Shown: piece after piece, positions 6,021-31,692 of the stretch
How the letters are laid out: each line of letters starts with the position of its first letter
Position numbering within the stretch: position 1 is the stretch's first letter
NCBI GenBank assembly: GCA_023898525.1
Contig: CP060227.1
Span: 301,634-365,633 of the forward strand
Reading direction: 5' to 3'
DNA from: Candidatus Nomurabacteria bacterium
GTDB lineage: Bacteria; Patescibacteriota; Minisyncoccia; Phycocordibacterales; UBA918
DNA length: 64,000 bases
Position numbers and translations under genes: made by a program
Notes under the pieces: model-generated
What the model was told of the DNA's origin: nothing
Databases searched by the model: none
What the model saw: only the letters and a program-made list of their open reading frames with translations

Positions 6021-6383
6021 TTAAGTTACCAATTGTGGCTCCAAAGAACCTTCCCTAAACTTAAATAAAGAGAATTCCCTCACTTTGGTATTCTTATCAT
6101 CAGGACACAGATAAATTGCTACGTAACTCGGTACACTCACCCCTCCGTCAAGAACAAATCCTATATTAGCATCAACACTGATGGATTTACCCTCTTTACA
6201 AACTTTCCCAGTAAACAGCATAGAATAAATTCTTTTGTTACTTGAACATATATATTCACAATCAAACATATCTTTCTCAAGACAAAAAGATGAATCAATT
6301 TTTTGCAAGGCAGGGACAACTTGCGTCATGGCCAGTATACCTAACACACCTTCTAGACCATCGTCCATTTTAGGAATAATCAT
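6021..6383 (-). CDS. Hypothetical protein (Cys-rich, AT-rich gene)
   Basis: 120-aa ORF with no recognisable motif, in an AT-rich local composition. Confidence 0.3.
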   Translation of the reverse strand: MIIPKMDDGLEGVLGILAMTQVVPALQKIDSSFCLEKDMFDCEYICSSNKRIYSMLFTGKVCKEGKSISVDANIGFVLDGGVSVPSYVAIYLCPDDKNTKVREFSLFKFREGSLEPQLVT

Positions 6384-6524
6384 AAGTTATTACCTCCAAA
6401 ATAATTTTCACAAAAAACAACCCAACTGCTTTTGGTAGCATATATAACAAATTTAAAATGTCAAATTAACTCGTCACTCAATACAACAGTGGAAATATTA
6501 ATAGTCAATGCTATACTGACCACC

Positions 6525-8465
6525 ATGAATAATCTAAATACATACGAAGGGATAATCATGATCCGGGGCAAAGGGACCGGTTTTGTGAACCATCCTGACT
6601 TTGAGGAGGATATCGTGATCGAGCGCGAAGCCTTAGGCTTCGCGCTCGATGGTGACATCGTAAAAATCGAGTTAAAGAAAAAAGTCCCCGGCAAAAGACG
6701 TGAGGGTAAGGTGTTAGAAGTAGTTAAACCAGCCTATCGAGAACTAATCGGTGTCGTCAAAGAAAAGACCGAAAACGGCCAAACTGTTAAGTTTTTAAAT
6801 CCTGACAACCACCGTATTCACATCCGTCCCCTACTTCCAGAAGCTACCAGCAACGACCTTGATATGAAGGTGGTCGTAGAAATTACCAAATGGACCCAAC
6901 CTCTCCTTGATCCAATCGCCAAAATCAGCGAGACCATCGGCCACGCCGGAGATCATGAGACCGAAATGCAAGCCATCATCAGAAGTGGCGGTTTTGCTAA
7001 GACTTTCCCAGAATCAGTCCAAAAAGCCGCCCAGGATTTACACAGTAACCAAGAACAGATTTTTGCCGACGCTCTAAAAGACCCAAAACGTCGCGACTTT
7101 CGTGGCGTTACTACCATGACTATCGACCCAGCGGACGCCAAGGACTTTGACGATGCTCTTTCCTGTCAATTTTTACCATCTGGTAATGTAGAAATCGGTA
7201 TTCACATCGCCGACGTATCACACTACGTTCGTGAAAACGACGACATAGACACCGAGGCCAAAGAACGTGCCACTTCTGTTTACCTGGTAGACCGCGTAAT
7301 TCCGATGTTACCGGAAATTTTGTCTAATGACCTCTGTTCCCTAAGACCAAACGAAGACCGCTTAGCTTTCTCAGCTGTTTTTGAACTGACTCCAGAAGCA
7401 AAGATTGTAAACGCTTGGTACGGTCAAACCATCATCCACTCCGATCAACGCTTCAGTTATGAAGATGCCCAAAAAGTACTAGACGAAAAAGACGGACCAT
7501 ATCTGAAAGAACTACAAACCATGATGGATCTTGGTCGTATATTGCGCAAAAAGCGCTACCAGGCCGGTGCTATCGCCTTTGAGCAGCCGGAAGTAAAGTT
7601 TGAGCTAGACGAACGCGGTGCGCCAATTCGTGCTTACGCCAAAGTCCGCACCGAAACCATGCTTATGATCGAAGACTTTATGCTTCTAGCTAACCGCGAG
7701 GTAGCTACCCATGTCTACGATCTCTGTAAAGACAAAGGGCGTGATGTGGCTTTCGTCTACCGTATCCACGACACTCCAGACCCAGACAAACTAGAAGAAC
7801 TTGGTTCTTTCCTTAGAGCAATTGGCTATGAATTTGAGGTCAATAAAGGTATGGTCAAAGCGACCACTATCAACAAACTCTTAGAAGAAGTGACCGGAAA
7901 GCCGGAAGAAAACCTCATTAAAACAGCCACTATTCGCACCATGGCCAAAGCCATTTACTCTACCAAAAATATTGGTCACTTCGGTCTCGCTTTCAAATTT
8001 TATACTCACTTCACTTCCCCGATTCGTCGCTACCCTGACCTGATGGTACACCGCATGCTTCGTCGCCATTTAGACAACTCTACCATCGGACCAAAAGAAC
8101 TAGCGAAGTACGAACAAATGTCACTGAAGTCTTCGCAACGCGAAATGGAAGCCGTGTCAGCCGAACGCGACTCAATCAAATTCAAACAAGTCGAATACCT
8201 AATGAACAAAATCGGCGAGACTTTCGAAGGAGTAATTACCGGGGTAACCGACTGGGGTATCTATGTGCAGGAAAAAAATACTCTAGCCGACGGTATGGTA
8301 CGTCTAGGTAGTATCAAGAGCGATTACTTTGAGCATGAGGCTAGTAAATACCGCATCAAAGGCCAAAAGACCGGTAAGGTCTATCAACTAGGTGACGAAG
8401 TGAAGGTGAAACTAACCCGTGCTGATAAGGATGAAAGGCAGCTGGATTTTGAGTTGGTAGTGTAA
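6525..8465 (+). CDS. rnr: Ribonuclease R / RNase II family 3'-5' exoribonuclease
   Basis: RNB catalytic-domain motifs (HFGLAFKFYTHFTSPIRRYPDLMVHR), N-terminal cold-shock/OB region (IRGKGTGFVNHP) and a C-terminal S1-like domain. The track start 6432 is a TTG; the ATG at 6525 (or 6558) is more plausible. Confidence 0.9.
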   Translation: MNNLNTYEGIIMIRGKGTGFVNHPDFEEDIVIEREALGFALDGDIVKIELKKKVPGKRREGKVLEVVKPAYRELIGVVKEKTENGQTVKFLNPDNHRIHIRPLLPEATSNDLDMKVVVEITKWTQPLLDPIAKISETIGHAGDHETEMQAIIRSGGFAKTFPESVQKAAQDLHSNQEQIFADALKDPKRRDFRGVTTMTIDPADAKDFDDALSCQFLPSGNVEIGIHIADVSHYVRENDDIDTEAKERATSVYLVDRVIPMLPEILSNDLCSLRPNEDRLAFSAVFELTPEAKIVNAWYGQTIIHSDQRFSYEDAQKVLDEKDGPYLKELQTMMDLGRILRKKRYQAGAIAFEQPEVKFELDERGAPIRAYAKVRTETMLMIEDFMLLANREVATHVYDLCKDKGRDVAFVYRIHDTPDPDKLEELGSFLRAIGYEFEVNKGMVKATTINKLLEEVTGKPEENLIKTATIRTMAKAIYSTKNIGHFGLAFKFYTHFTSPIRRYPDLMVHRMLRRHLDNSTIGPKELAKYEQMSLKSSQREMEAVSAERDSIKFKQVEYLMNKIGETFEGVITGVTDWGIYVQEKNTLADGMVRLGSIKSDYFEHEASKYRIKGQKTGKVYQLGDEVKVKLTRADKDERQLDFELVV

Positions 8466-9391: not shown

Positions 9392-11647
9392 TTATTTCGC
9401 CACCGCCACCGCTTCATCTAACTTCACCGACAAGAGTTTAGACACTCCATCTCCACCCATTGTTACCCCGTACAAGATACCAGCTCGGCTCATAGTCTCC
9501 CGATTGTGAGTGATAAGAATAAGTTGTGATTTCTTGGCCAACTCTTCGATCATATCACCATAGCGACGACTATTAGCTTCATCGAGCGCCGCATCGGTCT
9601 CATCAAGGATAATAAACGGCGGCGGATTCACCTGACTCATAGCAAAAATAAGGGCGATCGAAGTCAAGGCCCGTTCCCCGCCCGAAAGCATCTCAAGGCC
9701 TTTCACTCGCTTGTTTGGTAACTTAACCGCTAACTCAATACCGTTCTCTTTTTTCTTCGTCGACTCACCCTCTTCATCCACCTCGTCTTCTTCATCGGTT
9801 TTTGTAGTTACCTTTTCGAGCTTAGCCTCGCCACCGCCAAACATCAGTACAAAAAACCGGTTAAACTCGTTGGAAATTTTATCAATTCCCACCACAAACT
9901 GCTCTTCTAGTTTTTCATTGAGTTCAGCAATCAGTTCTCTTAACTTTTCAATTGATGCTTCGAGATCAGCTATTTCGTGAGCCAAAAATTCATCACGGGC
10001 TTTAGCGTCATTATATTCCTTTACCACATCTTCAGTGGCACCAATACCCATTTCCTCTAAACGAATCTTCAATTTTTCTAACTCATGCCGTCTTTGTCGC
10101 TGCACGCTCCTTTCTTCAGAAATTATACTTTCTTCGGCCACCTCCTTATCGTGTTCATCTTTAACTACAAAATCATAGTACTGTGAAGCCCCTCGCCCCA
10201 AAAGCGCCACCGCTTCTTGTAGTTCATCTTTAAATTCCTGACGATCACGATCTAAAACAGCTAGTTCTCGATCAATTTTTTCTATTTCACTTTCCAGTTC
10301 ACGACTTTGTCCAACCAAATGAAAGACTGCGCGCTCAGCTTCGCGTCCCTCGGTTGCTTCTTTTTGTCGCTTGCCTTCTAGTTCGGTATAGGCTGTCTTT
10401 GCTTCCACTTCACTCTCTTTAGCTTTAACAATTTTTTCTTCCAATTCTTTTAATTCCTTTTGCAAACGTGCAAGCTCAGCTTGATCAAGCTCCTGATTAT
10501 CATCCGGCACAGCTTCAGAACGTTCTACAAATAACTTTAGACGGTGCACTATGTCGGTAAGAGTCCGGTGGAGATAAGCTACCTCATCTTTTTTCGTAGC
10601 TTTTTCAACCTCTTGTTCAATCCTCTTTATTAGATCAGCCATTTCAGAGTACGGTATCGCTTTGCCTTTGTTTTCACTATTTCTTTTTTCATAGTCACGT
10701 AACCTCCTTTCCAAGAGAGAAATTTGACCCTCGTACTTACTATATTCGCGTTCTGCAACCTGTCTTTCTTCGGTCGCCTTACGTAACTTCTCATCTGCTT
10801 TCATAAAAGGTTCCAAATCTTGTTTGGACTCTGATTCTTTTAGAACCTTTTTTGCTTGCTCTAAGTCTTCTCTGGCTTTTTCTAAGTTTGCTTCCGGTTC
10901 CTTTCTCTTTTTAACCAAACGATCGTGATGATACGCAATGTAAGTATCCTCCCGTTTCAAATATTCAGCGTAAACGGTTTTTAACTGAGTCTGGAGTTCC
11001 AATGACTTTTCAATCTTTTGTACTTGGCGTTCAAGATATTTTAGATGTGGTGCCGCCTCTTTTCTCAACAGCTCCACTTGCGCAACATTATCTAATGTCT
11101 TTTTCAGCTTTTTGTCAGCTTCTTGCTTTTTATATTGATAAACTTTTAGTCCAAGTGCGTCTTCAATCATTTCCCGTCTTTCGCGTGCACCCGAACTCAA
11201 AATACGGTCTGCCTCACCTTGAGAAATAATATGATGACCGGTAGAACCAACATTAGCTGAAGCTAATAACTCTTGGATATCCTTAAGCCTTACATTTGAA
11301 TCATTGAGTAAATATTCGTTTTGTCCGTCACGGTGTACTACCCGCTCGATTTTAACTTCGTCAAAATCGAGCGGAAAAGTCCGCTTAGTATTATCAAGTA
11401 AAATCACTACACTGGCTCGATTACCCCTCGATACATCAGTTGAACCGCCCCAAATTAAGTCTTCACCCTTTTTACCACGCATTGACTTAACCGACTGTTC
11501 GCCTAAAACAAACCGAAAAGATTCAGCCACGTTACTCTTCCCTGAACCATTCGGTCCAACGATAGCCGTAATTGGTGCCGAGAACTCTAGCTCGCTTTTT
11601 TTGGCGAAAGACTTAAACCCAGAAATTGTTAGTTCTTTTAAATACAT
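9392..11647 (-). CDS. smc: SMC-family chromosome-segregation ATPase, short and hingeless (~751 aa)
   Basis: N-terminus MYLKELTISGFKSFAKK...ITAIVGPNGSGKSN (Walker A) and FRFVLGEQS. C-terminal signature LSGGERALTSIALIFAMSQVNPPPFIILDETDAALD (ABC signature plus Walker B) and ILYGVTM. The middle is continuous coiled coil with no recognisable ~150-aa hinge domain. Starting at MYLKEL (11647) rather than 11668 removes the overlap with the pilin gene. Confidence 0.8.
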   Translation of the reverse strand: MYLKELTISGFKSFAKKSELEFSAPITAIVGPNGSGKSNVAESFRFVLGEQSVKSMRGKKGEDLIWGGSTDVSRGNRASVVILLDNTKRTFPLDFDEVKIERVVHRDGQNEYLLNDSNVRLKDIQELLASANVGSTGHHIISQGEADRILSSGARERREMIEDALGLKVYQYKKQEADKKLKKTLDNVAQVELLRKEAAPHLKYLERQVQKIEKSLELQTQLKTVYAEYLKREDTYIAYHHDRLVKKRKEPEANLEKAREDLEQAKKVLKESESKQDLEPFMKADEKLRKATEERQVAEREYSKYEGQISLLERRLRDYEKRNSENKGKAIPYSEMADLIKRIEQEVEKATKKDEVAYLHRTLTDIVHRLKLFVERSEAVPDDNQELDQAELARLQKELKELEEKIVKAKESEVEAKTAYTELEGKRQKEATEGREAERAVFHLVGQSRELESEIEKIDRELAVLDRDRQEFKDELQEAVALLGRGASQYYDFVVKDEHDKEVAEESIISEERSVQRQRRHELEKLKIRLEEMGIGATEDVVKEYNDAKARDEFLAHEIADLEASIEKLRELIAELNEKLEEQFVVGIDKISNEFNRFFVLMFGGGEAKLEKVTTKTDEEDEVDEEGESTKKKENGIELAVKLPNKRVKGLEMLSGGERALTSIALIFAMSQVNPPPFIILDETDAALDEANSRRYGDMIEELAKKSQLILITHNRETMSRAGILYGVTMGGDGVSKLLSVKLDEAVAVAK

Positions 11648-11661
11648 TGCTGTGAATAATT

Positions 11662-12228
11662 TTACCAATCCTCGGCACCAATACTATAGACTGCGTAAGT
11701 TCTACTGTTTGCGTCGGCCGGTGTGGCTGTAGGACAAGCTCCACCCTGTCGCGGACAACGAGCAAACTCATCTCCATAACTTGAGACAGCTAACGACTCA
11801 ACCGTGTCATACACCATCAGCTTATAAGCTGTACCAGCCGCGTTGGTCATATAATAAAATCCTTTATTTGGTTCGTTTTCAGATTTTGGATCAGTTGGTA
11901 AAGTAGCTGTAAAGTCGGGAGTTAGACCCAATATATATTTAACAGACGGACCACAAGCCACCTTATCACCAGAGTCGGTACCTCCACTTGGTCCAGCGAA
12001 AGACGTCCCCGGCGTACCACAACCTTGCTCCGGATAACGATCGTTTTGGGCTTTGTATAACTGAATAGCTAGTTGCAATTCTTTCAATTCTGATAATCGC
12101 GTTTTATCACGAGCTTGTTTACGAGCATCATCAAAAGCGGCAAATAATATAGCTGATAAGAGGCCAATAATCGCAATAACGACTAGCAACTCAATTAAAG
12201 TAAAAGCTTTGGTGTTTTTTTTATACAT
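11662..12228 (-). CDS. Type IV pilin-like protein (prepilin-type N-terminal domain)
   Basis: The N-terminus KAFTLIELLVVIAIIGLL is a class-III signal / N-methylation motif, with Ala in place of the usual Gly at -1. A Cys-containing C-terminal domain follows. Confidence 0.75.
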   Translation of the reverse strand: MYKKNTKAFTLIELLVVIAIIGLLSAILFAAFDDARKQARDKTRLSELKELQLAIQLYKAQNDRYPEQGCGTPGTSFAGPSGGTDSGDKVACGPSVKYILGLTPDFTATLPTDPKSENEPNKGFYYMTNAAGTAYKLMVYDTVESLAVSSYGDEFARCPRQGGACPTATPADANSRTYAVYSIGAEDW

Positions 12229-12249
12229 AATTCACTTATATTTATTTTA

Positions 12250-12915
12250 TCACCTGCATATAACAGTGGAAGTGTCTCTAATTTTTATGGTTTCCGAAAC
12301 AGAATTGACCAAAGGAGCGAATCCTCCCCAAACAGCATACGACTTTTGGTAGCGACTATCATTAGTCTTGCACCAGGCGGGAGTATTGTTACCATTCCAA
12401 GGTGGGTTTACACAAAAACCAGCTTTGTACGGATCAGAAGAACCACTACCATCCCAATCACAACTCTTAAACTCATGCTTGTAGTCTATTGAGTCCGCTT
12501 CGACTGAGTTCATCGCCATGATTTTATAGACAGTACCGGCGGTATTGGTACGGTATACATATCCATAATCTCCTGAACCAGACTTAGGGTCAACCGGTAG
12601 CACCGAAATAAATTCTGGAGCTAGATTAACGATATACTGTGTATTATTACCACTACAAGCATAGTTAGTACCCTGTTCACCGGACCACTGATCCGCCCCT
12701 CTACAACCCTCCGGATAACGACCGTACTTATTTTTATAAAGCTCTACCGCGTTTTGCAGAGCCCGCAAGTCAGCTTGTCTTTCCGTGTCACGTGACTGCT
12801 TTCCGGCGTCAGAAGTATTAAACATAACAACTGCCACCAAAATACCAATTATGGCAATTACTACCATAATCTCGATTAAAGTGAATCCGCGATAATAAAA
12901 ATGCCTCATCTTCAT
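12250..12915 (-). CDS. Type IV pilin (prepilin with canonical RGFTLIE motif)
   Basis: The N-terminus MRHFYYRGFTLIEIMVVIAIIGILVA is a textbook prepilin peptidase site followed by the hydrophobic alpha1 helix. C-terminal Cys residues are present. Confidence 0.85.
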   Translation of the reverse strand: MKMRHFYYRGFTLIEIMVVIAIIGILVAVVMFNTSDAGKQSRDTERQADLRALQNAVELYKNKYGRYPEGCRGADQWSGEQGTNYACSGNNTQYIVNLAPEFISVLPVDPKSGSGDYGYVYRTNTAGTVYKIMAMNSVEADSIDYKHEFKSCDWDGSGSSDPYKAGFCVNPPWNGNNTPAWCKTNDSRYQKSYAVWGGFAPLVNSVSETIKIRDTSTVICR

Positions 12916-21698: not shown

Positions 21699-22292
21699 TC
21701 AGTATATAGATATTAAAAAATCTATTACCACTACATGTAATTGAGTAATAATCTCAGGCACATAAGATACCACAATCGAAGCTGGTAACATACCTACAGC
21801 AGTAGCAGTAATATATAGCTTTAACCTCATGTTAGAAAAAGTTCCTAACGCATAACTCAATATTCCAACCGGGATGAACATTCTCAAAACCAAAACAATA
21901 GTGAAAAATGTCTTTTCTCCATATCTTTTTTCATATTCTTCCAACTTTCTAAAAGGATATATCCTTTTAAGAAAAAGATTTCCGTAATATTTTTGAGCTA
22001 TCAAAAAAGTAATAACAGCACCAACCGTCCAAGAAAAAATACTTAACAGGACCGTCGTAAAACTACCCCAGATAACCACTCCAATTGGAACAAAAGTTAT
22101 CGCTGGTATCGGTATTATTAGTATGGAAATTATACCAATCAACACATAGATAATCATGCTGATAAAACCGTAATCCAAGTGCGTAATTATATCCATCCGA
22201 TACTTATTTGCTAATACCGAAACGATAATAAAAATTATTGGTATAATGACAAGACTCACGAACAGATCCTTTCTTCTTTCATTTTCAATCAT
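21699..22292 (-). CDS. DedA/TVP38-family membrane protein
   Basis: The multi-TM region FVPIGVVIWGSFTTVLLSIFSWTVGAVITFLIAQKYYG resembles the DedA/SNARE-associated domain. Confidence 0.6.
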   Translation of the reverse strand: MIENERRKDLFVSLVIIPIIFIIVSVLANKYRMDIITHLDYGFISMIIYVLIGIISILIIPIPAITFVPIGVVIWGSFTTVLLSIFSWTVGAVITFLIAQKYYGNLFLKRIYPFRKLEEYEKRYGEKTFFTIVLVLRMFIPVGILSYALGTFSNMRLKLYITATAVGMLPASIVVSYVPEIITQLHVVVIDFLISIY

Positions 22293-22406
22293 TTTTTAAG
22301 AACCTTTTTAGTTAATCAATCTACATACTTTATAAGATAATTTGTACTTTTAGGCAAATAAAATTTTATTATGTAAATATATTTATTTTTCTATATAATA
22401 TATTTT

Positions 22407-22901
22407 ATGGTTAGAAAAAAGATACTTATTTGGACATTGTTAATACTTACAGTAGCAGGACTGTTACTTGCCTATTTATTTGAAAATAATAATCACAATA
22501 AATACGTTGAGGTTAACTCAATAACCGAAAGACTTGGAACTGAATATAAAATTTTACATGAAATTATTGAACCAGACGAAAGACTAGGAAGACACGAAAA
22601 AAATGTTATATCTGATTTATATCACAAGAACGAAGGATGGTTACTTCGAAATAAAACAACTTATTGTTCTAATAGACTAATTGATGATATAGATAAGATT
22701 TCGACCAAATCTGGAATTTATAAATACACAGGAAACCCAGACGGTAATCAACTTACAATGGATGTTGAAAAATTTAAAAAACACCTTATTTCACTGAATG
22801 AGTTATGTGTAAACGAAACCGAATTCAATGGAGAGAAAGCTCTTGAAGCAACTTTGTTTATAAGTCCAGAACATAAAATTTGGAAAAAAGTAAAATACTA
22901 A
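22407..22901 (+). CDS. Hypothetical membrane-anchored/secreted protein
   Basis: 164 aa with an N-terminal TM/signal helix, AT-rich, no recognisable domain. Confidence 0.4.
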   Translation: MVRKKILIWTLLILTVAGLLLAYLFENNNHNKYVEVNSITERLGTEYKILHEIIEPDERLGRHEKNVISDLYHKNEGWLLRNKTTYCSNRLIDDIDKISTKSGIYKYTGNPDGNQLTMDVEKFKKHLISLNELCVNETEFNGEKALEATLFISPEHKIWKKVKY

Positions 22902-22902
22902 A

Positions 22903-22970
22903 TTTGACATTTTATTTCCTAGCGTTAGCATTAGAATATATACATAGACAGAGATTGTGGCAGCTACCAA
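22903..22970 (+). repeat. Repeated intergenic element, copy 1 (~65 bp)
   Basis: tttgacattttatttcctagcgttag...atatatacatagacagagattgtggcagctaccaa is ~85% identical to copy 2. It contains a TTGACA -35-like hexamer and the near-palindrome cctagcgttagg. Confidence 0.6.
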
Positions 22971-23176
22971 ACACAAGCATAAGATAGTTGTATACAAAGA
23001 CAGTACTTTAGCACTTAAGTCAAAAAATAAATTCGCTAATTATTTTGTTTTATAAAAAATGGTGATACCTACCTCTGCCCAAGTTAAAGTTGCTTTTTCT
23101 TAAAAATGTGTTACTCTTCAAATAGAGTCGAACTAAGTTTTTTAGTTGAAGAGACTACCAATATTCTTAAACAAAA

Positions 23177-23695
23177 TTGGAGATAAAAATGAAAATGATA
23201 TTAGTTACAGATCATGAAAATGTATCCTGTAAAAAATACCACATCGATAAATTTAAGCGCAGCTCCAAAACTTATGAAGAAGTCATTAAACAAGAACTCA
23301 GCATAGAAGAGTCTCTTAACCTTAACGAAGGGGATTTAGTTATAATACCAAGGCGGATTGCCTATTATGACTACCCTATAACAAGCAGTCTTAAAAAAAC
23401 CGTTGAAGAAGGCGCTGTATTATTATGGCATACTAGTAACATAAATTATTATCCCAATGAACTTAATGAAGTAAAATTATGTTGCCAAGAGCAACTTGTC
23501 AGACATTTTACAGAGAGTTGGATTAATTACAAGGTTTCAGTCTATTCACGTGGATATTCTTCTCATGGCAAGAACTTGTTTAAGTATATTAAACACAAGA
23601 AAATAAACCTTGAGAAAATGACCGCAACAGACTTTAGGGATTTGATAGGAGCTCTATCTAAAACCTGGATTGAAGGACTTGAATGGATTAGGTAA
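23177..23695 (+). CDS. Hypothetical cytoplasmic protein
   Basis: 172 aa, no recognisable domain, followed by a clean terminator. Confidence 0.4.
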   Translation: MEIKMKMILVTDHENVSCKKYHIDKFKRSSKTYEEVIKQELSIEESLNLNEGDLVIIPRRIAYYDYPITSSLKKTVEEGAVLLWHTSNINYYPNELNEVKLCCQEQLVRHFTESWINYKVSVYSRGYSSHGKNLFKYIKHKKINLEKMTATDFRDLIGALSKTWIEGLEWIR

Positions 23696-23701
23696 CAAAT
23701 C

Positions 23702-23735
23702 AGCCTCACAAAACAAATGTGAGGCTTTATTTTTT
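23702..23735 (+). terminator. Rho-independent terminator
   Basis: agcctcaca...tgtgaggct stem followed by ttattttttt. Confidence 0.6.
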
Positions 23736-23778
23736 ACTTACATAATCCAAAATACTATATATTTTGTACGCAAATTTA

Positions 23779-23839
23779 TTTGACAATTTATTTCCTAGCG
23801 TTAGGATATATACAAACCAGAGATTGTGGTGGCTACCAA
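23779..23839 (+). repeat. Repeated intergenic element, copy 2
   Basis: tttgacaatttatttcctagcgttaggatatatacaaaccagagattgtggtggctaccaa. It lies upstream of the thrS leader and is the probable promoter (TTGACA ... gatatat). Confidence 0.6.
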
Positions 23840-23904
23840 CCATCGAGATGAATTTGATTTAAAATTTATCTGTACAAAGATTTTGTACCTAATCTGAAAT
23901 TGGA

Positions 23905-25996: not shown

Positions 25997-26626
25997 CTAC
26001 ATATATTTCCTTCTCCATAAAAGCATAATATATAAACTGGTATTCCCTACAGTTTGTACTAGTACATAGGTGACTGTAAGTAGATTATACTCAGTTAATG
26101 AAATGATAACGAGTATTGCAGCTATTGCCATAATTAACCAAAATGAAGCAGTTTCACTATAAGGTTCTGTGTATGATTTTCTAAAAGTTGGGACATAACT
26201 CAATGCCTCAATAAAAGAAACTGTTAGCACTGCAAGTGACGGGTTGTCTAACTGCCACCAAAAGATAATTGCCAATAAAGCAAAAAAGAGAATTATTGTG
26301 TCACTCTTTGTTATATTCTTGGTACCGTATTTTAGAGACAATATAAGAATTAGTGCCATTAAACTTGTACCTATAATTAGTACCGTACTTCCAAAAACAC
26401 CTCCTCCTCCGTTTATTAACGCTACTAAGGCTGTTGCTTGTGTGATTATTACAATAAGCCAAGTATACAAATGGGGTTGAGTATTCTTTTGTAGAATATC
26501 TTTAATATAAGGTGCAAATCCTATGATCACTAGTATAGAAGCTACAACTGAAGCTGCTAATTTTATATCTACGTTCTCAAACATAATTAAATAATAACAC
26601 TGAATTTTCAAAATTAAGTATGACAA
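25997..26626 (-). CDS. Polytopic membrane protein (6 predicted TM), unknown function
   Basis: Hydrophobic helices throughout. The start may be MFENVDIK (26584). Confidence 0.5.
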   Translation of the reverse strand: MSYLILKIQCYYLIMFENVDIKLAASVVASILVIIGFAPYIKDILQKNTQPHLYTWLIVIITQATALVALINGGGGVFGSTVLIIGTSLMALILILSLKYGTKNITKSDTIILFFALLAIIFWWQLDNPSLAVLTVSFIEALSYVPTFRKSYTEPYSETASFWLIMAIAAILVIISLTEYNLLTVTYVLVQTVGNTSLYIMLLWRRKYM

Positions 26627-26660
26627 AAACCGCGCGCCAAGGGCGTGCGGTTTTTGTTTT
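26624..26660. terminator. Bidirectional terminator, copy B (identical 31-bp core to copy A)
   Basis: The same aaaaaccgcgcgccaagggcgtgcggttttt sequence. Confidence 0.6.
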
Positions 26661-26674
26661 TATTTATTATTTAA

Positions 26675-29545
26675 TTAAGCGTGGGTTACCACCTTAACAG
26701 CTTTCATGATTGCCACCTTTACCGCTGAAGCCTCATCGGTATAAGTACCATCAAGTGCGCCCGTCAAAGCTTTGATCATATCAAGTAATTGTTCATCTGA
26801 CAGACTTTCAGTTTCTTTAAGCAACATATCAGAAACCACTTCCTTATTTCCTTTTCGAGTTCGATAAACAGAATCCAGGTCAGCCGCCGCATCAGCTAGA
26901 GCAAACATTGGTCGGTGACCAATCATTTCGTAAGCAGCAACTACGTTACCGGTTACTATTGCCTCAGCTAGTGAACCAGATCCTTCTGGCATAACGGTTG
27001 GAATAAACTGAGTCGCTTTTTCGGCTACCTGAAACAATCCACTGTCTTTACATAAATCAATCATTCTTTTTTCGTTTATCACAATCCATCCTTCCTCTGC
27101 CGGAATCTGTGATTTAGCCGCCTTGATAATTTGACTAAGTATATTTAGTCGCTCATCAACCTCATCCACCTTACCAACAAAATGACGAATCGCATCACTT
27201 GATAAGAGCACGTGCTCTGTGTGGGCATAATTTTCAATTCGTGTAACTTCCTCATCATCAATCATATGAGCAGAAGTTTCAGCAGATGAAACATTGTCTT
27301 CTAAATTAGCATATCCAATAACGGGTGCAATTGGTAGGTTCGCCGGAACTGCGGACTCAACTACCGCTGTATCAGTTTTAGAAGTGTCAGCACCAACATT
27401 TTCAACCACCGTGGTTGGAGAGATATTATTTGAACCAGAATTTGTTAACTTAATATTATTTGTCGTTACCAACTTGTCATCATCATACAAGGTTGGACGA
27501 ACAACCATCAGGTAAGCAATGTATAGAGCCCAAAGCATTAGTAGTGTGTAGAAGAGTACGGTTAGTATTGGTCCAGCCTCAAAACCAGTATATGGTACTT
27601 CAGCTAATGAAATACTAGCAATTAAAGGCTGTTGATCACGCACCTGTTTTACCACAATAGTGTCACCTTCTACCTCAACCTTAGCGGTACAAATACGATC
27701 TCTTGAACCACGTTCTACGTTCATTGTGTAAGTCGTATCTTTAGTCGGACTTAGGGTTAGAGAACCATCAAACAAGCCAATTTTGTCTTTACTAAGCTTA
27801 TCCTCAGTAGTAACCAATACTTCTCCACTATCATCAACAATCTTTAGCTCGGTAGCACGGCTACTTTTCCAAACTAACTCAATCTCCTCACCGTGCTTTA
27901 TTTTCACATCAGACACAGAAAGTTCACAAGTCGGAGAAGATGAACCGCCTCCGCCTCCGCCACCAGAAGTTACTACTACCGGAATTGGACAAGAGATTGT
28001 GTCGATACCATCAGTCGCTGTTAAAGTATAAGTAGTATCAGAAGTTGGAGACACAGAGATTGAACCGCTCAAGCTGGTTGAATTAATACCCCCATCAAAA
28101 CTTAAGCTGGTAACACCGGTTGTGCTCCAAGCTAGAGTTGCCGCTTGCCCTCTTTTAATACTAGCCGGACTCATTGATAAGTTAACATTATTAGCACAAG
28201 ATAAAGGAATTGGTGTACTTTCAACTGTAATTTCAGAAGTACAACTCACAGTCTCTCCATTAGTACCAAGGACATCTAATTGATAAGTTTTATTAGCTGT
28301 GAGAGCACCTGTGTTCTCTGTGCCGTCAAAAGCTACATTACCAAGGTCAGTCAAAACCGCTGAAGTTGCATTGGTTGTGGTCCAAATCAGATCAACTGAT
28401 TCACCGCTAGCAATTGTTTTCGTCGCTGGAGACAAAGTACAAGCCGGAGCAAGAACTGGCGGTTCCTCAACTGTTAGAGTAACTGAACAAGTATCCCGTT
28501 TGTCATCATCACCAAAGGCGGTGAGTAGATATTCAGTAGTTGCAAGAGGGGTCACAGAAAGAGTTCCGGTAGCAGATACTTCACCAATACCGTTATCAAT
28601 GACAACTCGATTGGCATTTAAAGTAGACCAGTTTAAATCAGCTGAATTACCTTTAAGCAAAGCGTCAGGAGTCGCGTTTAAAAATTCACACTTAGGAGCT
28701 GGGACTTCACAAGCATATCCGACAGTAGTCTCAACAGTATTACTATATGACCAATCATTGAAGTTATTTAATTCTTTAGCCGTAGCTTTGGCAGTGTTTT
28801 CTACTACCACATAAGTATCACAAGCTAGACCATCAACCACTTTACCGGTCCAAGTTATAGTTCCTTCTTCTCCAGGACTAAGTTCGTGACCATTCCACCA
28901 CAACTTTCGTGAGCTTGGTACATAAAGAGGAGTGCTCCCATAGCCAGCATCAAGGTTACTTGTATGTGTCTCACTTATAAAAGTAACGTTTTGATCCACA
29001 ACATCAAGAATACGTACTCCACCACCTGTACAATCAGTGGTTCCGGTATTTTTAATATTTATAGTGTAAGTTATCTCATCACCAGGATTAACCTTTGTTG
29101 AACTAACAGACTTTTCAAGGGTAAGTTCACAGTAAGCAGTCGCTGGTGGATTACCCATGTAATTTACCTGTACTTCAGAAGTACAGTTAGAATTACCGTC
29201 AGCTGACTCAGCGAACAAGGTGTAGGTGGTATCATTCTGCAGATCATCAATAGTAATAGTTCCTGACAGATTATTTAGCTCCTGACCATTTAGATAAACC
29301 TTAGCAAAACCGGTCACAGCCCAAGAAATATCTAAATCAGACCCAGCATAGATCTCATTTGAGCTAGCCGACAGGTCACAAGTACCAGCCACCCCGCCGG
29401 TACCATTGGTAGCCAAAGCACTACTTGGCAACAAAGAACCAAGTTCGTTGTTGGCATTATATGAACCGAAGTTCAAAACAGCAAAAACCAACACCATTAC
29501 AAAAGCGATTGGTGCCACCTTTTTGATATCAATAAAATTTTTCAT
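26675..29545 (-). CDS. Large type-I membrane surface protein with Ig-like/DUF11 repeats and a ~290-aa cytoplasmic C-terminal domain
   Basis: An N-terminal signal/TM (VAPIAFVMVLVFAVLNF) is followed by at least 6 repeats of ~85 aa (C...W.T...TY.LTA...C) and a DUF11-like segment (VNPGDEITYTINIKNTGTTDC). A Gly7 linker follows. The LAEVPYTG motif comes immediately before a TM helix (ILTVLFYTLLMLWALYIAYLMVV-RP), and a 290-aa domain of unknown fold lies after it. Confidence 0.7.
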   Translation of the reverse strand: MKNFIDIKKVAPIAFVMVLVFAVLNFGSYNANNELGSLLPSSALATNGTGGVAGTCDLSASSNEIYAGSDLDISWAVTGFAKVYLNGQELNNLSGTITIDDLQNDTTYTLFAESADGNSNCTSEVQVNYMGNPPATAYCELTLEKSVSSTKVNPGDEITYTINIKNTGTTDCTGGGVRILDVVDQNVTFISETHTSNLDAGYGSTPLYVPSSRKLWWNGHELSPGEEGTITWTGKVVDGLACDTYVVVENTAKATAKELNNFNDWSYSNTVETTVGYACEVPAPKCEFLNATPDALLKGNSADLNWSTLNANRVVIDNGIGEVSATGTLSVTPLATTEYLLTAFGDDDKRDTCSVTLTVEEPPVLAPACTLSPATKTIASGESVDLIWTTTNATSAVLTDLGNVAFDGTENTGALTANKTYQLDVLGTNGETVSCTSEITVESTPIPLSCANNVNLSMSPASIKRGQAATLAWSTTGVTSLSFDGGINSTSLSGSISVSPTSDTTYTLTATDGIDTISCPIPVVVTSGGGGGGGSSSPTCELSVSDVKIKHGEEIELVWKSSRATELKIVDDSGEVLVTTEDKLSKDKIGLFDGSLTLSPTKDTTYTMNVERGSRDRICTAKVEVEGDTIVVKQVRDQQPLIASISLAEVPYTGFEAGPILTVLFYTLLMLWALYIAYLMVVRPTLYDDDKLVTTNNIKLTNSGSNNISPTTVVENVGADTSKTDTAVVESAVPANLPIAPVIGYANLEDNVSSAETSAHMIDDEEVTRIENYAHTEHVLLSSDAIRHFVGKVDEVDERLNILSQIIKAAKSQIPAEEGWIVINEKRMIDLCKDSGLFQVAEKATQFIPTVMPEGSGSLAEAIVTGNVVAAYEMIGHRPMFALADAAADLDSVYRTRKGNKEVVSDMLLKETESLSDEQLLDMIKALTGALDGTYTDEASAVKVAIMKAVKVVTHA

Positions 29546-29764
29546 ATCTTCTATAATATAAATTTATAAGTTCTATACCCTCACCTACACCTTAAGTACG
29601 CAAGAGTAACAGAAACCACAAATTACCACTCAAAAGAACGGTTGTATTACTGTCCCGAGCTGGTTTAGCAGACAGTTACTTGTGAAAATACTTAGTTTAG
29701 AACAGTAATCTTTTTCCTTATAAACAAACGCTAGTTGATTTTTATAAGTTTGTCAATAGGGCTT

Positions 29765-30478
29765 TTATAAAGCTCTCACCTCAGAAAGTTCAGCCTCAAT
29801 AATAAATCTGTCGTCTACCGAGCCAAAACTGTTACAAGTAGCCAAGACAAGTTTTTGTGTCTCACCAGCAATTGGGACACTAGCGTTGGCTGCGTAAGCT
29901 TTGTATACTTTATTTACCTTGTACACGTACTCATCTTGACCTGACTGAAGCCTTACAACGTCTCCCCACTTGAGGTTTTGTATGCCGTTGAAAGCTTTAA
30001 AATTTTTATTGTTTACCACCGGCAAATAACTGGAGTGTCCTAAAATAAACACCGTACCATTTTGATCCAAAGTAGCCGAGTCAGGATGTCTAACTGCTCC
30101 GTCCAGCAAAGCGTTGTCTAAATCATGAACTGATCTTGAAGTTGGATTAGCAACTTGGATGGTTTTATCAAGAGTGTCGAAAATAATTTTTTCAGGCTTC
30201 ACATTTTGGATTGTTGAAACTATGGGTGTTGAAGTGTCCTCTATGACATCAACTTCACTGACACCTGCGTCATTTACAGTAAAACCGGACAAACCGGATT
30301 CCTCAACAGAATCATCTTTATTTATCTGATCGGAAGAAATCGGTTCTGGTAAAAAATCAAACCAAGCTAGAACAGCGTATGAAATTAAAAATACTATGAA
30401 AAAGGTAGTTACAAATGCAACTTTTTTTTCTAAGATTATATCCATAATTTCTGACTGATCCTGACTAGTTTTTTCCAT
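29765..30478 (-). CDS. Sortase-family transpeptidase
   Basis: N-terminal membrane anchor; His in FILGHSS; catalytic Cys in the TLxTC-like LVLATCNSF; the Arg of DRFIIEA. It lies directly upstream of the 956-aa surface protein on the same strand. Confidence 0.82.
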   Translation of the reverse strand: MEKTSQDQSEIMDIILEKKVAFVTTFFIVFLISYAVLAWFDFLPEPISSDQINKDDSVEESGLSGFTVNDAGVSEVDVIEDTSTPIVSTIQNVKPEKIIFDTLDKTIQVANPTSRSVHDLDNALLDGAVRHPDSATLDQNGTVFILGHSSYLPVVNNKNFKAFNGIQNLKWGDVVRLQSGQDEYVYKVNKVYKAYAANASVPIAGETQKLVLATCNSFGSVDDRFIIEAELSEVRAL

Positions 30479-30621
30479 ATAAATTATTACTAAATGACAT
30501 TAATATATATAACATATTTTATTTTGTTTGTCAATGCAACATTTTTAATAAATGTCTATACTACTGATAATATAAGCCTTGGTCTTGACAGACTAGTTTA
30601 AATATAGTATTATAAAAAGAT

Positions 30622-31692
30622 ATGACAAACACAACTGAAAATCCAAATGACTCCAAAAAAGGTGCACAGAAGCTGATTATGGCAGCTGGGCTGATAGCTA
30701 TTATAGTATTCTTTGCTTGGTCTGCAGTTCAAATTGTAAAAATATTCCCTACTGCTGTCAGCTCATTAGCTTCACTGGCAGATAATGTCTATAATTACAG
30801 AGAAGGAGATAAAAAACAAACTATCTCTGCTACATCTGACCGCAGTATTATGAACAGTGGTGAATCCCTAGAGGTGTGGTGGGAAAATACTAAAACATCA
30901 GGTACTTATACCTTTAATTACGAATGTAAAGATGGTGTGGCTATCGACATTAAAACGACCGATAAGGAATTCGTGAGTCTGAGTTGTGGCAGTTCCTACG
31001 ATCTTGGACTTGTCGATCGATTAGAAATGCAAGTCGATTCAGAAAAGGCCCGCTTTGCTGAAATAGCCTACACAATATCTTACATCAAGAACAATTCCTC
31101 AGAACCAGATTCTTCACAGACTAAAAGTATATCCGTTTTAAACACCAACATAGCCGAAACGGAGTCTATTACCGATACCGACACTCAATCTGAGAATGAG
31201 AACAAGCCTGAAGAGGCACCTAGCGATACAACAACAGAACCTACAGAAACCAAGGAGACTGTATCTACGCAACCAAAGCCTGTCATACCAACTGAAACAG
31301 TATATACCTACGCTATACCTGTATCAGATCCAAACGGGAGTACTGACTTAGTCGTAAGTGATCTTAAAATTGGTGTTGAAAATAATACAGATACTTTTAT
31401 AGAAACCAATAGCATAATACAGGATATACCAGGTGTAATTAAATTCACCGTACATAATATTGGCAACAAAACTTCTAACACTTGGGTTTTCGAGGTGGAA
31501 CTACCTGGCAATGTAACTTACAAGTCAGACGATCAAGACCCATTAAAACCTAATGAAAGGGCTATCATCACCATTAATTTCCCAGCGGTTAATGAAATTG
31601 GTAAAGACTCAATCTCAATTCAAACCTTTACTAGAAGTGACGCCAATATAACCAACAACTATCTCAACGAATCAGTTACCGTAACCCAGTAG
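30622..31692 (+). CDS. Membrane-anchored secreted protein with a Thr/Glu/Pro-rich linker and a CARDB-like C-terminal domain
   Basis: N-terminal TM (LIMAAGLIAIIVFFAW), a low-complexity linker (TEPTETKETVSTQPKP), and C-terminal DLVVSDLKIG...FTVHNIGNKTSNTWVFEV, which resembles a CARDB/adhesion beta-sandwich. Confidence 0.5.
   Translation: MTNTTENPNDSKKGAQKLIMAAGLIAIIVFFAWSAVQIVKIFPTAVSSLASLADNVYNYREGDKKQTISATSDRSIMNSGESLEVWWENTKTSGTYTFNYECKDGVAIDIKTTDKEFVSLSCGSSYDLGLVDRLEMQVDSEKARFAEIAYTISYIKNNSSEPDSSQTKSISVLNTNIAETESITDTDTQSENENKPEEAPSDTTTEPTETKETVSTQPKPVIPTETVYTYAIPVSDPNGSTDLVVSDLKIGVENNTDTFIETNSIIQDIPGVIKFTVHNIGNKTSNTWVFEVELPGNVTYKSDDQDPLKPNERAIITINFPAVNEIGKDSISIQTFTRSDANITNNYLNESVTVTQ

What the first reader, a model, noticed from the sequence alone, without database searches (positions are those of the whole stretch)
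26675..30478. Sortase operonic with a 956-aa Ig-repeat protein whose sorting-signal-like motif (VPYTG plus TM plus RP) is internal and followed by a 290-aa cytoplasmic domain
The sortase gene (TLxTC-type Cys, His and Arg present) sits immediately upstream of the large protein on the same strand. That protein has LAEVPYTG, five spacer residues, a 23-residue hydrophobic helix and an Arg, which is the layout of a cell-wall sorting signal. The ORF then continues for ~290 more residues of unknown fold. Either this is a receptor-like type-I membrane protein, or sortase cleavage would release the ectodomain to the wall and leave a membrane-tethered cytoplasmic fragment, i.e. regulated processing. That would be an unusual arrangement.
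Basis: partly seen in the sequence, partly recalled or inferred. Interest (0 to 1): 0.6.

Follow-up and report, generated by a model that had tools for sequence, protein, structure and literature searches.

The report
Sortase substrate with internal sorting signal
A surface protein of an ultra-small (Patescibacteria) bacterium carries a complete sortase "cell-wall sorting signal" in the middle of the chain, followed by a conserved cytoplasmic domain. This layout, next to its own sortase, is the norm in its whole lineage, so it is real biology and an undescribed variant of a textbook system, not an assembly error.

Summary
ORF 26675-29545(-) encodes 956 aa: a signal sequence, six Cys-bracketed Ig-like/DUF11 modules, VPYTG (aa 650-654), a 5-aa spacer, a 23-aa TM helix and R683. 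An 80-aa disordered linker and a 193-aa helical domain without a Pfam family follow. A sortase with intact His148/Cys215/Arg224 lies 219 bp upstream on the same strand.

The layout is conserved, not an artefact. Of 172 related Patescibacteria loci, 138 have the same in-frame fusion (motif almost always VPYTG). An intact sortase sits upstream in 76 of 89 loci examined for it. The signal region, the sortase and the cytoplasmic domain are the best-conserved parts.

In a minority of lineages the protein ends right after the TM and basic residues, which is a canonical sorting signal. The cytoplasmic domain is then read from the -1 frame. In 13 such loci the junction is exactly an A9 run, and adding one A restores the fusion.

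Best reading (about 0.55): a dedicated sortase cleaves T653|G654, links the ectodomain to the wall and leaves a membrane-tethered cytoplasmic protein. The domain's function is unknown; it weakly resembles clamp-loader lid and collar domains. Cleavage is inferred, not shown. I rate it a new variant of a known kind.

The parts
29765..30478 (-). Sortase gene (237 aa). It has an N-terminal membrane anchor at about aa 20-40 and a catalytic domain at about aa 100-237, with His148 (30035-30037), Cys215 (29834-29836) and Arg224 (29807-29809).
   Evidence: Pfam PF04203 matches at 4.3e-16, 59.2 bits against a cut-off of 26.6. All NCBIfam class models score below their cut-offs; class D is best at 31-32 bits. 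The nearest solved structures are class D sortases 2ln7 and 4d70. His, Cys and Arg are invariant in 76 of 76 complete orthologous sortases.
29546..29764 (-). Intergenic spacer of 219 bp between the sortase and the substrate gene.
   Evidence: The sequence shows TTGACA just after the sortase stop and a weak hairpin at 29642-29625. Co-transcription is neither shown nor excluded.
26675..29545 (-). The 956-aa precursor: ectodomain, internal sorting signal and cytoplasmic domain in one ORF.
   Evidence: The same architecture occurs in 138 of 172 related loci. In the long members among the 150 best representatives of 661 clusters, the C-domain lies at the extreme C-terminus.
29453..29545 (-). N-terminal signal sequence (aa 1 to about 31; hydrophobic core aa 10-26).
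   Evidence: Hydropathy scan. The cleavage site was not predicted with a dedicated tool, so this is inferred.
27671..29410 (-). Ectodomain (aa 46-625): six Cys-bracketed beta modules, including DUF11 at aa 141-265 (28751-29125). A Gly7-SSSP linker precedes the membrane-proximal module at aa 540-625.
   Evidence: Pfam DUF11 4.4e-12 and TIGR01451 4.9e-10. Cys map. This is the most variable part of the protein: median 38% identity over 72% of its length.
27569..27640 (-). Juxtamembrane stalk plus sorting motif RDQQPLIASISLAE-VPYTG-FEAGP (aa 636-659). VPYTG is at 27584-27598.
   Evidence: The consensus of 72 fused orthologs is RDQQPLVAGISLTQVPYTGFEAGP. Motif variants: VPYTG 67, VPHTG 2, TPYTG 2, IPYTG 1. 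The stalk-plus-signal segment, aa 626-683, is the best-conserved segment of the protein, with median identity 66%.
27497..27568 (-). Transmembrane helix aa 660-682 followed by the stop-transfer Arg683.
   Evidence: Hydropathy scan. The conserved pattern is FYxLLxxWALYxAYLLVI followed by RR, KR or RK.
27257..27496 (-). Cytoplasmic disordered linker (aa 684-763) containing the conserved short motif PANLPxxPxxGY.
   Evidence: The AlphaFold2 model has pLDDT of about 50 here. P51, L54 and P55 of the segment are nearly invariant.
26678..27256 (-). Folded cytoplasmic domain (aa 764-956) with two helical subdomains. It belongs to no Pfam or NCBIfam family.
   Evidence: AlphaFold2 models have pLDDT of about 90. 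There are 24 invariant columns, including ENxAH, LLSSDA, EDGW, SLAE, RPMxALADA and ALDGxYxDE. Foldseek against PDB gives clamp-loader gamma/delta/RFC as best hits: E 2.6e-3, TM 0.40-0.42, about 200 columns. There is no Pfam, NCBIfam or PDB sequence match.
26622..26658 (.). Strong hairpin terminator (17-bp stem) just after the stop codon of the precursor gene.
30622..31692 (+). Divergently transcribed 356-aa membrane protein (N-terminal TM plus Ig-like domains). It is a conserved neighbour of the sortase and a possible third component.
   Evidence: It is present in nearly all syntenic loci (X=True). Pfam gives only a weak DUF1573 match. Divergent promoter-like sites lie in the 143-bp spacer 30479-30621.

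Best explanation
The locus encodes a dedicated sortase and its substrate, conserved across Paceibacteria/Parcubacteria-type Patescibacteria.

**Proposed steps (all inferred)**
1. The substrate is made as a two-in-one precursor and exported through Sec by its N-terminal signal sequence.
2. The helix at aa 660-682 together with Arg683 stops transfer. The Ig-like/DUF11 ectodomain ends up outside and the last 273 residues stay in the cytoplasm.
3. The neighbouring sortase recognises the invariant juxtamembrane segment (...ISLxxVPYTGFEAGP) and cleaves between Thr653 and Gly654.
4. The sortase transfers the ectodomain to the cell wall, presumably to lipid II.
5. The remnant Gly654-Ala956 stays behind as an N-out/C-in membrane protein. 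Its linker and helical domain act in the cytoplasm, independently of the ectodomain.

In other words, the cleaved-off 'sorting signal', normally a disposable peptide of about 30 aa, is here a conserved functional protein.

**Shown here:** the anatomy, its conservation, the intact sortase, and the modularity of the two halves.
**Not known:** the acceptor of the transfer reaction and the biochemical role of the cytoplasmic domain.
For: 1. **The signal is complete.** xPxTG, a 5-aa spacer, a 23-aa TM helix and a basic residue are all present.
2. **The layout is the norm in the lineage.** It is fused in 138 of 172 related loci and in 71 of 84 non-redundant genome-based loci. P, T and G of the motif are invariant.
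3. **A sortase accompanies it.** A sortase with invariant His, Cys and Arg lies upstream on the same strand in 76 of 89 loci examined, in conserved synteny gyrB-X-sortase-substrate-thrS.
4. **The same segment works as a canonical signal elsewhere.**
   - In L007, L065, L091-L094 and L125 the ORF ends ...VPYTGFEAGP-TM-IKKKVS*.
   - In L086 it ends ...RKKEQKLY*.
   - In L004 it ends ...KRRRAAQTSDAADTLQ*.
   The segment is therefore a self-sufficient C-terminal sorting signal.
5. **The cytoplasmic half works on its own.**
   - L004 encodes it as a separate gene starting MTGS plus its own homologous TM helix. That product closely mimics the predicted post-cleavage remnant.
   - A whole clade has a 2-TM version with no ectodomain and no motif, 11 bp downstream of the sortase.
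   - All of these keep the 24 invariant residues.
6. **Conservation pattern.** Median identity to the window protein is 66% for the signal region, 63% for the sortase catalytic domain, 60% for the C-domain, 38% for the ectodomain and 36% for the linker. This fits a co-evolving enzyme-substrate pair.
7. **No competing substrate nearby.** No other sorting-signal ORF occurs in the window or in about 1.2 Mb of flanks.
8. **Precedent.** In Streptococcus gordonii the membrane remnant of a cleaved LPXTG protein (C-pep) has a function, per Hall 2019 as summarised in PMC7763024.
Against: - No experiment has been done, and the specificity of this unclassified sortase is unknown. It falls below every NCBIfam class cut-off.
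- Conservation extends well beyond the pentapeptide, about 14 residues upstream and 5 downstream. That is atypical for sorting signals and could reflect a structural role instead.
- The clade without ectodomain and without motif still keeps an intact sortase directly upstream. The sortase to C-domain link is therefore not explained by a substrate relationship alone, or may simply be inherited synteny.
- In 16 of 60 species other genes sit between the sortase and the substrate.
- Neither the Pfam nor the NCBIfam LPXTG-anchor model matches.
- Whole genomes could not be scanned, so 'dedicated' is not proven.
Confidence: 0.55

Rival explanations
1. The protein is an uncleaved type-I membrane protein: a receptor or adhesin whose ectodomain is physically coupled through the helix to the cytoplasmic domain. 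On this reading VPYTGFEAGP is a conserved juxtamembrane structural or docking element. The sortase is next door only through inherited synteny, or it binds the protein without cleaving it.
For: - Conservation around the motif is extended and atypical for sorting signals.
- The sortase stays adjacent to the ectodomain-less, motif-less 2-TM variant.
- The locus lies in a block of housekeeping genes (gyrB, thrS, dnaE) whose order is conserved anyway.
- No LPXTG-anchor HMM matches.
Against: - Several independent lineages separate the two halves and still keep both intact. The separations are a TM duplication in L004 and frame breaks after the TM, in the middle of the linker and at the end of the linker. 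That is hard to reconcile with signalling that needs a continuous chain.
- In those lineages the ectodomain protein ends as a textbook sorting signal.
- The motif residues P, T and G that sortases require are invariant, while position 1 and the residue between P and T can vary.
Confidence: 0.25
2. The sortase does cleave at VPYTG, but the acceptor is another protein rather than the wall precursor. Candidates are a Lys of the same ectodomain (a pilus-like polymer) or the conserved divergent neighbour at 30622-31692.
For: - DUF11 / 'B. anthracis repeat' modules occur in sortase-assembled surface structures (own knowledge).
- A conserved TM plus Ig-like neighbour is always present.
- V at motif position 1 occurs in pilin signals of streptococci (own knowledge).
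- In the A9 clades the long form would be made sub-stoichiometrically, as expected for a basal subunit.
Against: - Only one sortase gene is found in the locus, whereas pilus loci usually have a class C sortase plus a housekeeping one.
- The nearest solved relatives are class D, and class C scores worst.
- No pilin-motif lysine was looked for or found.
Confidence: 0.12
3. The fusion in this window is an assembly or sequencing artefact: a missed stop or frameshift near 27500-27650 joins two genes.
For: - A minority of relatives do have a stop right after the TM and basic residues.
Against: - The window has no homopolymer at the junction (VVRPTLYDDD).
- 138 independent loci from many assemblies and pipelines have the same uninterrupted frame.
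- Full-length orthologs of 773 and 1083 aa were read directly in L002 and L001.
Confidence: 0.01

Closest known systems
Canonical LPXTG cell-wall sorting signals and sortase A-type anchoring (Staphylococcus and Streptococcus paradigm; own knowledge)
   Same: It has an N-terminal signal sequence, an xPxTG pentapeptide, a short spacer, a hydrophobic helix and basic residues. A membrane-anchored Cys/His/Arg transpeptidase is encoded next to it.
   Different: The signal is internal rather than at the extreme C-terminus. It is followed by 273 conserved cytoplasmic residues instead of a tail of a few residues. The motif is VPYTG, and conservation extends to RDQQPLVAGISLxxVPYTGFEAGP. The sortase fits no defined class.
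Dedicated sortase with a single adjacent substrate, such as SrtB-IsdC (NPQTN) or the class GN 'marine' sortase (TIGR03784) with its one adjacent target (own knowledge; TIGR03784 scored 20.8 bits against a cut-off of 158)
   Same: One sortase gene sits next to one target gene. The recognition sequence is lineage-specific and strongly conserved.
   Different: Those targets end at the sorting signal. The sortase here is not a member of those classes, because its scores fall far below their cut-offs.
C-pep signalling in Streptococcus gordonii (Hall et al. 2019, as summarised in PMC7763024)
   Same: After sortase cleavage, the membrane-retained C-terminal remnant of the substrate has a function of its own.
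   Different: There the remnant is a peptide of about 30 aa sensed by a two-component system. Here it would be a 303-aa protein with a folded domain. No two-component system is present in the locus.
Clamp-loader subunits (DnaX gamma/tau, HolA, HolB, RFC), domains II and III (AAA+ lid plus collar)
   Same: The predicted fold of aa 764-956 matches these domains better than anything else in PDB. About 200 columns align, TM is 0.40-0.42 and many family members are hit.
   Different: E-values are only 3e-3 to 5e-2 and rmsd is about 15 A. There is no ATPase domain, no sequence similarity and no Pfam match. This is a lead on the fold, not membership.
Gene expression through 9A slippery runs (Thermus thermophilus dnaX, Shigella mxiE, IS elements; PMC1088944)
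   Same: In sister lineages, though not in this window, the junction between the sorting signal or linker and the cytoplasmic domain is exactly A9. The downstream part lies in the -1 frame, and one extra A restores the long product.
   Different: Slippage has not been shown experimentally here. Internal initiation, phase variation, or a systematic homopolymer under-call remain possible.

Membership tests
Sortase (PF04203) transpeptidases | Sortase domain HMM match above the curated cut-off | tested here: met
   59.2 bits against a cut-off of 26.6, E 4.3e-16, aa 120-231.
Sortase (PF04203) transpeptidases | Catalytic His, Cys (TLxTC-like) and Arg | tested here: met
   His148 (GHSS), Cys215 (LVLATC) and Arg224 (DDRF). 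They are invariant in 76 of 76 complete orthologous sortases.
Sortase (PF04203) transpeptidases | Membrane anchoring that places the catalytic domain outside the cell | tested here: met
   A hydrophobic segment lies at about aa 20-40, upstream of the catalytic domain. The topology is inferred.
Defined sortase classes A-F and GN | Score above the NCBIfam class model cut-off | tested here: not met
   Class D 30.8-32.1 bits (cut-offs 140 and 165). Class E 23 (cut-off 160). Class GN 20.8 (cut-off 158). Class C 14.7 (cut-off 160). The nearest PDB relatives are class D, at 1e-4. The sortase is therefore unclassified.
Cell-wall sorting signal (LPXTG type) | xPxTG pentapeptide | tested here: met
   VPYTG at aa 650-654. 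P, T and G are invariant in 72 orthologs.
Cell-wall sorting signal (LPXTG type) | Hydrophobic helix shortly after the motif, then positively charged residues | tested here: met
   A 5-aa spacer, a 23-aa helix and then R683. Orthologs mostly have RR, KR or RK.
Cell-wall sorting signal (LPXTG type) | Position at the extreme C-terminus, with only a short charged tail | tested here: not met
   In the window, 273 residues follow R683. The feature is met only in the minority 'split' relatives (IKKKVS*, RKKEQKLY*, KRRRAAQTSDAADTLQ*).
Cell-wall sorting signal (LPXTG type) | N-terminal secretion signal | tested here: met
   Basic residues followed by a hydrophobic core at aa 10-26. No dedicated predictor was available.
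Cell-wall sorting signal (LPXTG type) | Match to the LPXTG-anchor HMMs (PF00746, TIGR01167) | tested here: not met
   No such hit at E up to 0.1.
Cell-wall sorting signal (LPXTG type) | Cleavage between T and G by sortase, with linkage to the wall | not testable with these tools
   This needs biochemistry or proteomics.
Clamp-loader / AAA+ family | AAA+ ATPase core (Walker A and B) | tested here: not met
   The folded domain has only 193 aa, is all-helical with two short strands, and has no P-loop. There are no Pfam AAA hits.
Clamp-loader / AAA+ family | Lid plus collar fold | tested here: inconclusive

The most novel reading that the evidence does not exclude
Sortase acts here as the maturation enzyme of a two-in-one precursor. 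A single translation product yields a wall-linked, fast-evolving surface protein and, from what is normally the discarded sorting-signal remnant, a conserved membrane-tethered cytoplasmic protein with a clamp-loader-collar-like domain. Surface display would thus be coupled stoichiometrically, or as a signal, to an intracellular process. Sister lineages would tune the ratio of the short canonical substrate to the long precursor through programmed slippage at an A9 run placed exactly at the module boundary.
Probability: 0.35. Interest if true: 0.85.

Novelty: new variant of a known kind. Interest (0 to 1): 0.7.

Why it matters
**Challenge to the textbook rule.** Sortase sorting signals are defined as C-terminal, and the cleaved remnant is treated as waste. 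Here an internal signal followed by a conserved folded cytoplasmic domain is the standard state of a whole bacterial lineage: 661 clusters at 50% identity. If cleavage occurs, this widens what sortases are used for, from anchoring alone to making two proteins from one precursor or reporting surface display to the cytoplasm.

**Relevance to Patescibacteria.** The locus marks a near-universal, syntenic, uncharacterised cell-envelope module in Paceibacteria. These organisms depend on their surface to interact with hosts, yet most of their envelope proteins have no known function.

**A candidate recoding case.** The exact A9 runs at module boundaries in sister clades are a candidate new case of programmed slippage. 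This can be tested from public metatranscriptomes.

**Practical use.** VPYTG together with an unclassified sortase could provide a new orthogonal pair for sortase ligation.

Tried and rejected
- **Assembly artefact or missed stop.** Rejected: 138 independent fused loci exist, full-length ORFs were read in L001 and L002, and the window has no homopolymer at the junction.
- **Known family for the C-terminal domain.** Nothing was found.
  - Pfam and NCBIfam on the window protein gave nothing.
  - Pfam on 87 family members at E up to 1 gave no recurrent family.
  - A PDB sequence-profile search gave only noise.
- **Profile comparison with a clamp loader.** I looked for a clamp-loader gene in the window to run a profile-profile comparison. 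The only ORF with a Walker A motif (G..G.GK[ST]) is the 758-aa ORF at 9392-11668, which was not pursued, so this was dropped.
- **Other sortase substrates.** None were found in the window or in about 1.2 Mb of flanks. None lie near the sortase of the ectodomain-less clade either. Whole genomes could not be scanned.
- **Exact-sequence look-up of the window protein.** It is not in the public gene-position index.
- **Literature.** No paper mentions VPYTG as a sorting motif, internal LPXTG signals, or sortase substrates of Parcubacteria or Patescibacteria. Méheust 2019 notes only that a sortase family is enriched in CPR bacteria.
- **'Soluble' 200-270 aa family members as independent genes.** I first read the 200-270 aa members without a TM helix as separate genes. 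Those whose DNA context I checked (P0107, P0068) are -1-frame continuations after an A9 run, P0095 is cut by a scaffold gap (L090), and ORF calls that start inside the helix are truncated; the rest were not checked individually.
- **L060.** Its split is an indel without a homopolymer, probably an error or a pseudogene, and carries no weight.

Full report
**1. What is in the window**

The minus strand carries a 237-aa ORF (29765-30478) and, 219 bp downstream, a 956-aa ORF (26675-29545).

The first ORF is a sortase.
- It matches Pfam PF04203 at 59.2 bits against a cut-off of 26.6.
- It has His148, Cys215 in LVLATC, and Arg224.
- It has an N-terminal hydrophobic anchor.
- It scores below the cut-off of every NCBIfam sortase class; class D is best at about 31 bits against 140-165.
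- Its nearest solved relatives are the class D enzymes 2ln7 and 4d70, at E 1e-4.

The 956-aa protein has these parts:

| Residues | Feature | Basis |
|---|---|---|
| 1 to about 31 | N-terminal signal-like sequence | |
| 46-625 | Six Cys-bracketed beta modules, one a Pfam DUF11 domain (aa 141-265, 4e-12) | |
| before the last module | Gly7-SSSP linker | |
| 636-649 | Stalk RDQQPLIASISLAE | |
| 650-654 | VPYTG | |
| 655-659 | Spacer FEAGP | |
| 660-682 | 23-residue hydrophobic helix | |
| 683 | Arg | |
| 684-956 | 273 further residues | |

Two corrections apply: 273 (not about 290) residues follow the Arg, and 'operonic' is not established. The 219-bp spacer holds promoter-like hexamers and a weak hairpin. 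No other xPxTG-plus-helix candidate exists in the 64 kb.

**2. It is not an artefact: the fusion is the norm in the lineage**

A search with the last 335 residues found 146 relatives. The closest ones keep ...VPYTGFEAGP, the helix, the basic residues and the same C-terminal region.

Reading contigs directly gave full-length orthologs of 1083 aa (L001) and 773 aa (L002, with VPHTG). Both have the same layout in the same neighbourhood, pheT-gyrB-X-sortase-substrate-thrS-dnaE.

I then made two censuses.
- **Genome-based census.** It covers 80 GTDB species-representative loci plus the look-up loci L001-L009 and the window. All are Patescibacteria labelled Paceibacterota, Parcubacteria, Kaiserbacteria or Nomurabacteria, plus a few obviously mislabelled bins. 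It gave 71 fused, 5 split, 3 without ectodomain and 5 truncated. Motifs were VPYTG 67, VPHTG 2, TPYTG 2 and IPYTG 1.
- **Extended census.** Adding 80 metagenome loci gave 138 fused, 19 split, 14 without an upstream motif and 1 scaffold gap.

An exhaustive profile search found 661 clusters at 50% identity (223 at E up to 1e-30). In the long proteins among the 150 best that are listed, the domain sits at the very C-terminus.

A same-strand upstream sortase was found in 76 of the 89 loci examined. Its His, Cys and Arg are invariant in all 76 complete sequences.

Median identity to the window protein differs sharply between parts:

| Part | Median identity |
|---|---|
| Stalk plus signal | 66% |
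| Sortase catalytic domain | 63% |
| Cytoplasmic domain | 60% |
| Membrane-proximal module | 49% |
| Rest of the ectodomain | 38% (over 72% of its length) |
| Linker | 36% |

The consensus around the motif is RDQQPLVAGISLTQVPYTGFEAGPxLTxxFYxLLxxWALYxAYLLVIRR.

**3. Natural experiments that separate the two halves**

(a) **L004 (also L003).** The ectodomain gene ends ...ISLTQVPYTGFEAGEMLSFLFYGLLTLWALYVAYVVIKRRRAAQTSDAADTLQ*, a textbook C-terminal sorting signal. The next gene starts MTGSVLTLFFYAALTLWGLFVSYVVVIKW..., which is its own homologous helix followed by the cytoplasmic domain. That second product looks almost exactly like the fragment predicted to remain after cleavage at T|G.

(b) **The ectodomain-less clade.** A sizeable clade (P0034, P0049, P0051, P0080 and others; L005, L038, L051) has no ectodomain and no motif. 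It has an N-terminal helical hairpin followed by the same linker and domain, 11 bp after, or overlapping, an intact sortase gene.

(c) **Frame-broken loci.** In other loci the zero frame stops right after the helix (IKKKVS*, RKKEQKLY*), in the middle of the linker, or at the end of the linker. The rest of the protein is encoded in the -1 frame.

Across all these variants the 24 invariant residues of the cytoplasmic domain are retained.

Two conclusions follow. First, VPYTG plus helix plus basic residues is a self-sufficient sorting signal. Second, the cytoplasmic domain does not need to be covalently joined to the ectodomain. Both are what one expects if the two halves are separated post-translationally in the fused form. 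This is an inference, not a demonstration.

**4. An unexpected regularity in the split loci**

The frame junction is exactly A9 in 13 non-redundant loci, at three different positions in the gene, with diverged flanking sequence. In L086 it is A7. In every case the downstream part is in the -1 frame.

Inserting a single A restores an uninterrupted ORF from VPYTG through a linker with the usual conserved motifs into the domain, with no stop. This held in 12 of the 12 loci tested.

Among the 138 fused loci, only four have a run of seven or more A in that interval.

Independent assembly pipelines (NCBI MAGs, Logan, JGI) give the same A9.

Runs of nine A are the classic slippage-prone sequence used for expression in Thermus thermophilus dnaX, in mxiE and in IS elements (PMC1088944).

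The simplest reading is that these lineages make both a short canonical sortase substrate and, after slippage (or a -1 ribosomal frameshift), the long precursor. Three alternatives cannot be excluded without reads:
- phase variation;
- internal initiation at an ATG created in the -1 frame by the conserved Trp codon;
- a systematic A10-to-A9 under-call.

The window itself has no such run (VVRPTLYDDD) and is plainly fused.

**5. The cytoplasmic region**

AlphaFold2 with the family alignment predicts a disordered linker at aa 684-763 (pLDDT about 50). The linker contains the nearly invariant PxNLPxxxxxxGY motif.

The model is confident for aa 764-956 (pLDDT about 90). It has two subdomains: helix-strand-helix-helix-strand-helix, followed by six helices.

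There is no Pfam or NCBIfam family and no PDB sequence relative.

Foldseek against PDB returns clamp-loader subunits almost exclusively at the top (E. coli gamma, delta and delta', B. subtilis delta, RFC, Rad24- and CTF18-RFC), followed by RuvB lids.
- About 200 columns align and TM is 0.40-0.42.
- E is only 2.6e-3 to 5e-2 and rmsd is about 15 A.

The domain has the size and order of an AAA+ lid plus collar but lacks an ATPase core. This is a lead that may hint at oligomerisation or docking to an AAA+ partner. It is not an assignment. The function of the domain remains unknown.

**6. Most likely mechanism and rivals**

Best-supported model (about 0.55): a dedicated sortase-substrate pair.
1. 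The precursor is exported through Sec.
2. The helix and Arg683 stop transfer.
3. The sortase cleaves Thr653|Gly654.
4. The ectodomain is transferred to the wall.
5. A 303-aa N-out/C-in remnant is left, and its cytoplasmic domain is the functional second product.

A precedent exists for a functional remnant: the C-pep circuit of Streptococcus gordonii.

Points against the model:
- There is no experiment.
- The sortase is unclassified.
- Conservation extends unusually far beyond the pentapeptide.
- An intact sortase is retained next to the motif-less, ectodomain-less variant.
- Other genes are inserted between sortase and substrate in 16 of 60 species.

Rivals:
- An uncleaved type-I receptor or adhesin (about 0.25).
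- Cleavage with transfer to a protein acceptor or a polymer, possibly the conserved divergent TM plus Ig-like neighbour at 30622-31692 (about 0.12).
- An artefact (about 0.01).

**7. Comparison with what is known**

The system works like a classical LPXTG sorting signal and meets most of its defining features: the pentapeptide, the helix, the basic residues, the N-terminal signal and an adjacent sortase. It fails the positional criterion (extreme C-terminus) and the anchor HMMs.

It resembles the 'one sortase, one adjacent target' systems (SrtB-IsdC, class GN) in logic but not in family.

I found no paper that describes VPYTG signals, internal sorting signals with cytoplasmic domains, or sortase substrates of Parcubacteria. 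Méheust et al. 2019 report only that a sortase family is enriched in CPR bacteria.

**8. Verdict**

The feature is a lineage-wide, apparently undescribed variant of a known system, with an uncharacterised cytoplasmic domain family and a candidate recoding site in sister clades. Interest is 0.7.

Noticed in passing
L007 6962-6970; L065 6821; L091 4909; L092 2950; L093 2947; L094 897; L125 1285; L118 404; L072 1355; L079 1454; L080 4122; L105 406; L119 1157; L086 6911 (A7): In sister lineages the boundary between the sorting signal or linker and the cytoplasmic domain is exactly an A9 run, with the downstream part in the -1 frame. Adding one A restores the long ORF in all 12 loci tested. This is a candidate for programmed transcriptional slippage, -1 frameshifting or phase variation. 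It is not present in the window.
   Followed up: partly
L005 5307-6987; L038 about 6037-7720; L051 about 6084-7789: One clade lacks both the ectodomain and the VPYTG motif. It keeps an intact sortase immediately upstream (11-bp gap, or overlapping) of a protein made of a 2-TM hairpin plus the cytoplasmic domain. The sortase to C-domain link is therefore not explained by a substrate relationship alone.
   Followed up: partly
window 30622-31692 (+): A 356-aa protein with an N-terminal TM helix and Ig-like domains (weak DUF1573 match) is transcribed divergently from the sortase. It is conserved in that position in nearly all related loci and may be a third component.
   Followed up: partly
window about 21700-23900: A low-GC island (0.31 against about 0.41) lies between dnaE and thrS. 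It holds three small ORFs (197-aa membrane protein, 164 aa, 172 aa) that are absent from the syntenic loci of relatives. It is probably an insertion.
   Followed up: no
window 49874-51472 (-): A 533-aa secreted protein ends ...AIKYTSPLFYLGVGTFLILFLLWLIKRRGEDN*. It has a C-terminal helix and a basic tail but no xPxTG motif. It may have a different kind of C-terminal anchor.
   Followed up: no
window 54133-63913 (-) and 11662-12915 (-): There are two giant secreted proteins (1343 and 1895 aa, one ending in a Gly run) and two type IV pilin-like genes (N-terminal FTLIEL motif). These are typical Patescibacteria surface equipment and carry no sortase signal.
   Followed up: no
L002 2633-4159; L001 5441-6145; L090 936-2960: In several relatives foreign-looking genes are inserted between the sortase and the substrate gene. 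In L002 these are strikingly GC- and Arg-rich ORFs.
   Followed up: no
L055, L056, L067 (record titles): Contigs with this Patescibacteria-specific syntenic locus are filed under MAGs named Patiriisocius, Azotimanducaceae and Acidimicrobiales. These are probably mis-binned contigs. Many TPA MAGs labelled 'Saccharibacteria' carry a Paceibacteria-type locus.
   Followed up: no
window 26622-26658: A very strong hairpin (17-bp stem, T-rich sequence on both sides) lies between the precursor gene and the 209-aa multi-TM ORF at 25997-26626. It overlaps the latter's predicted TTG start, so that start is doubtful.
   Followed up: no
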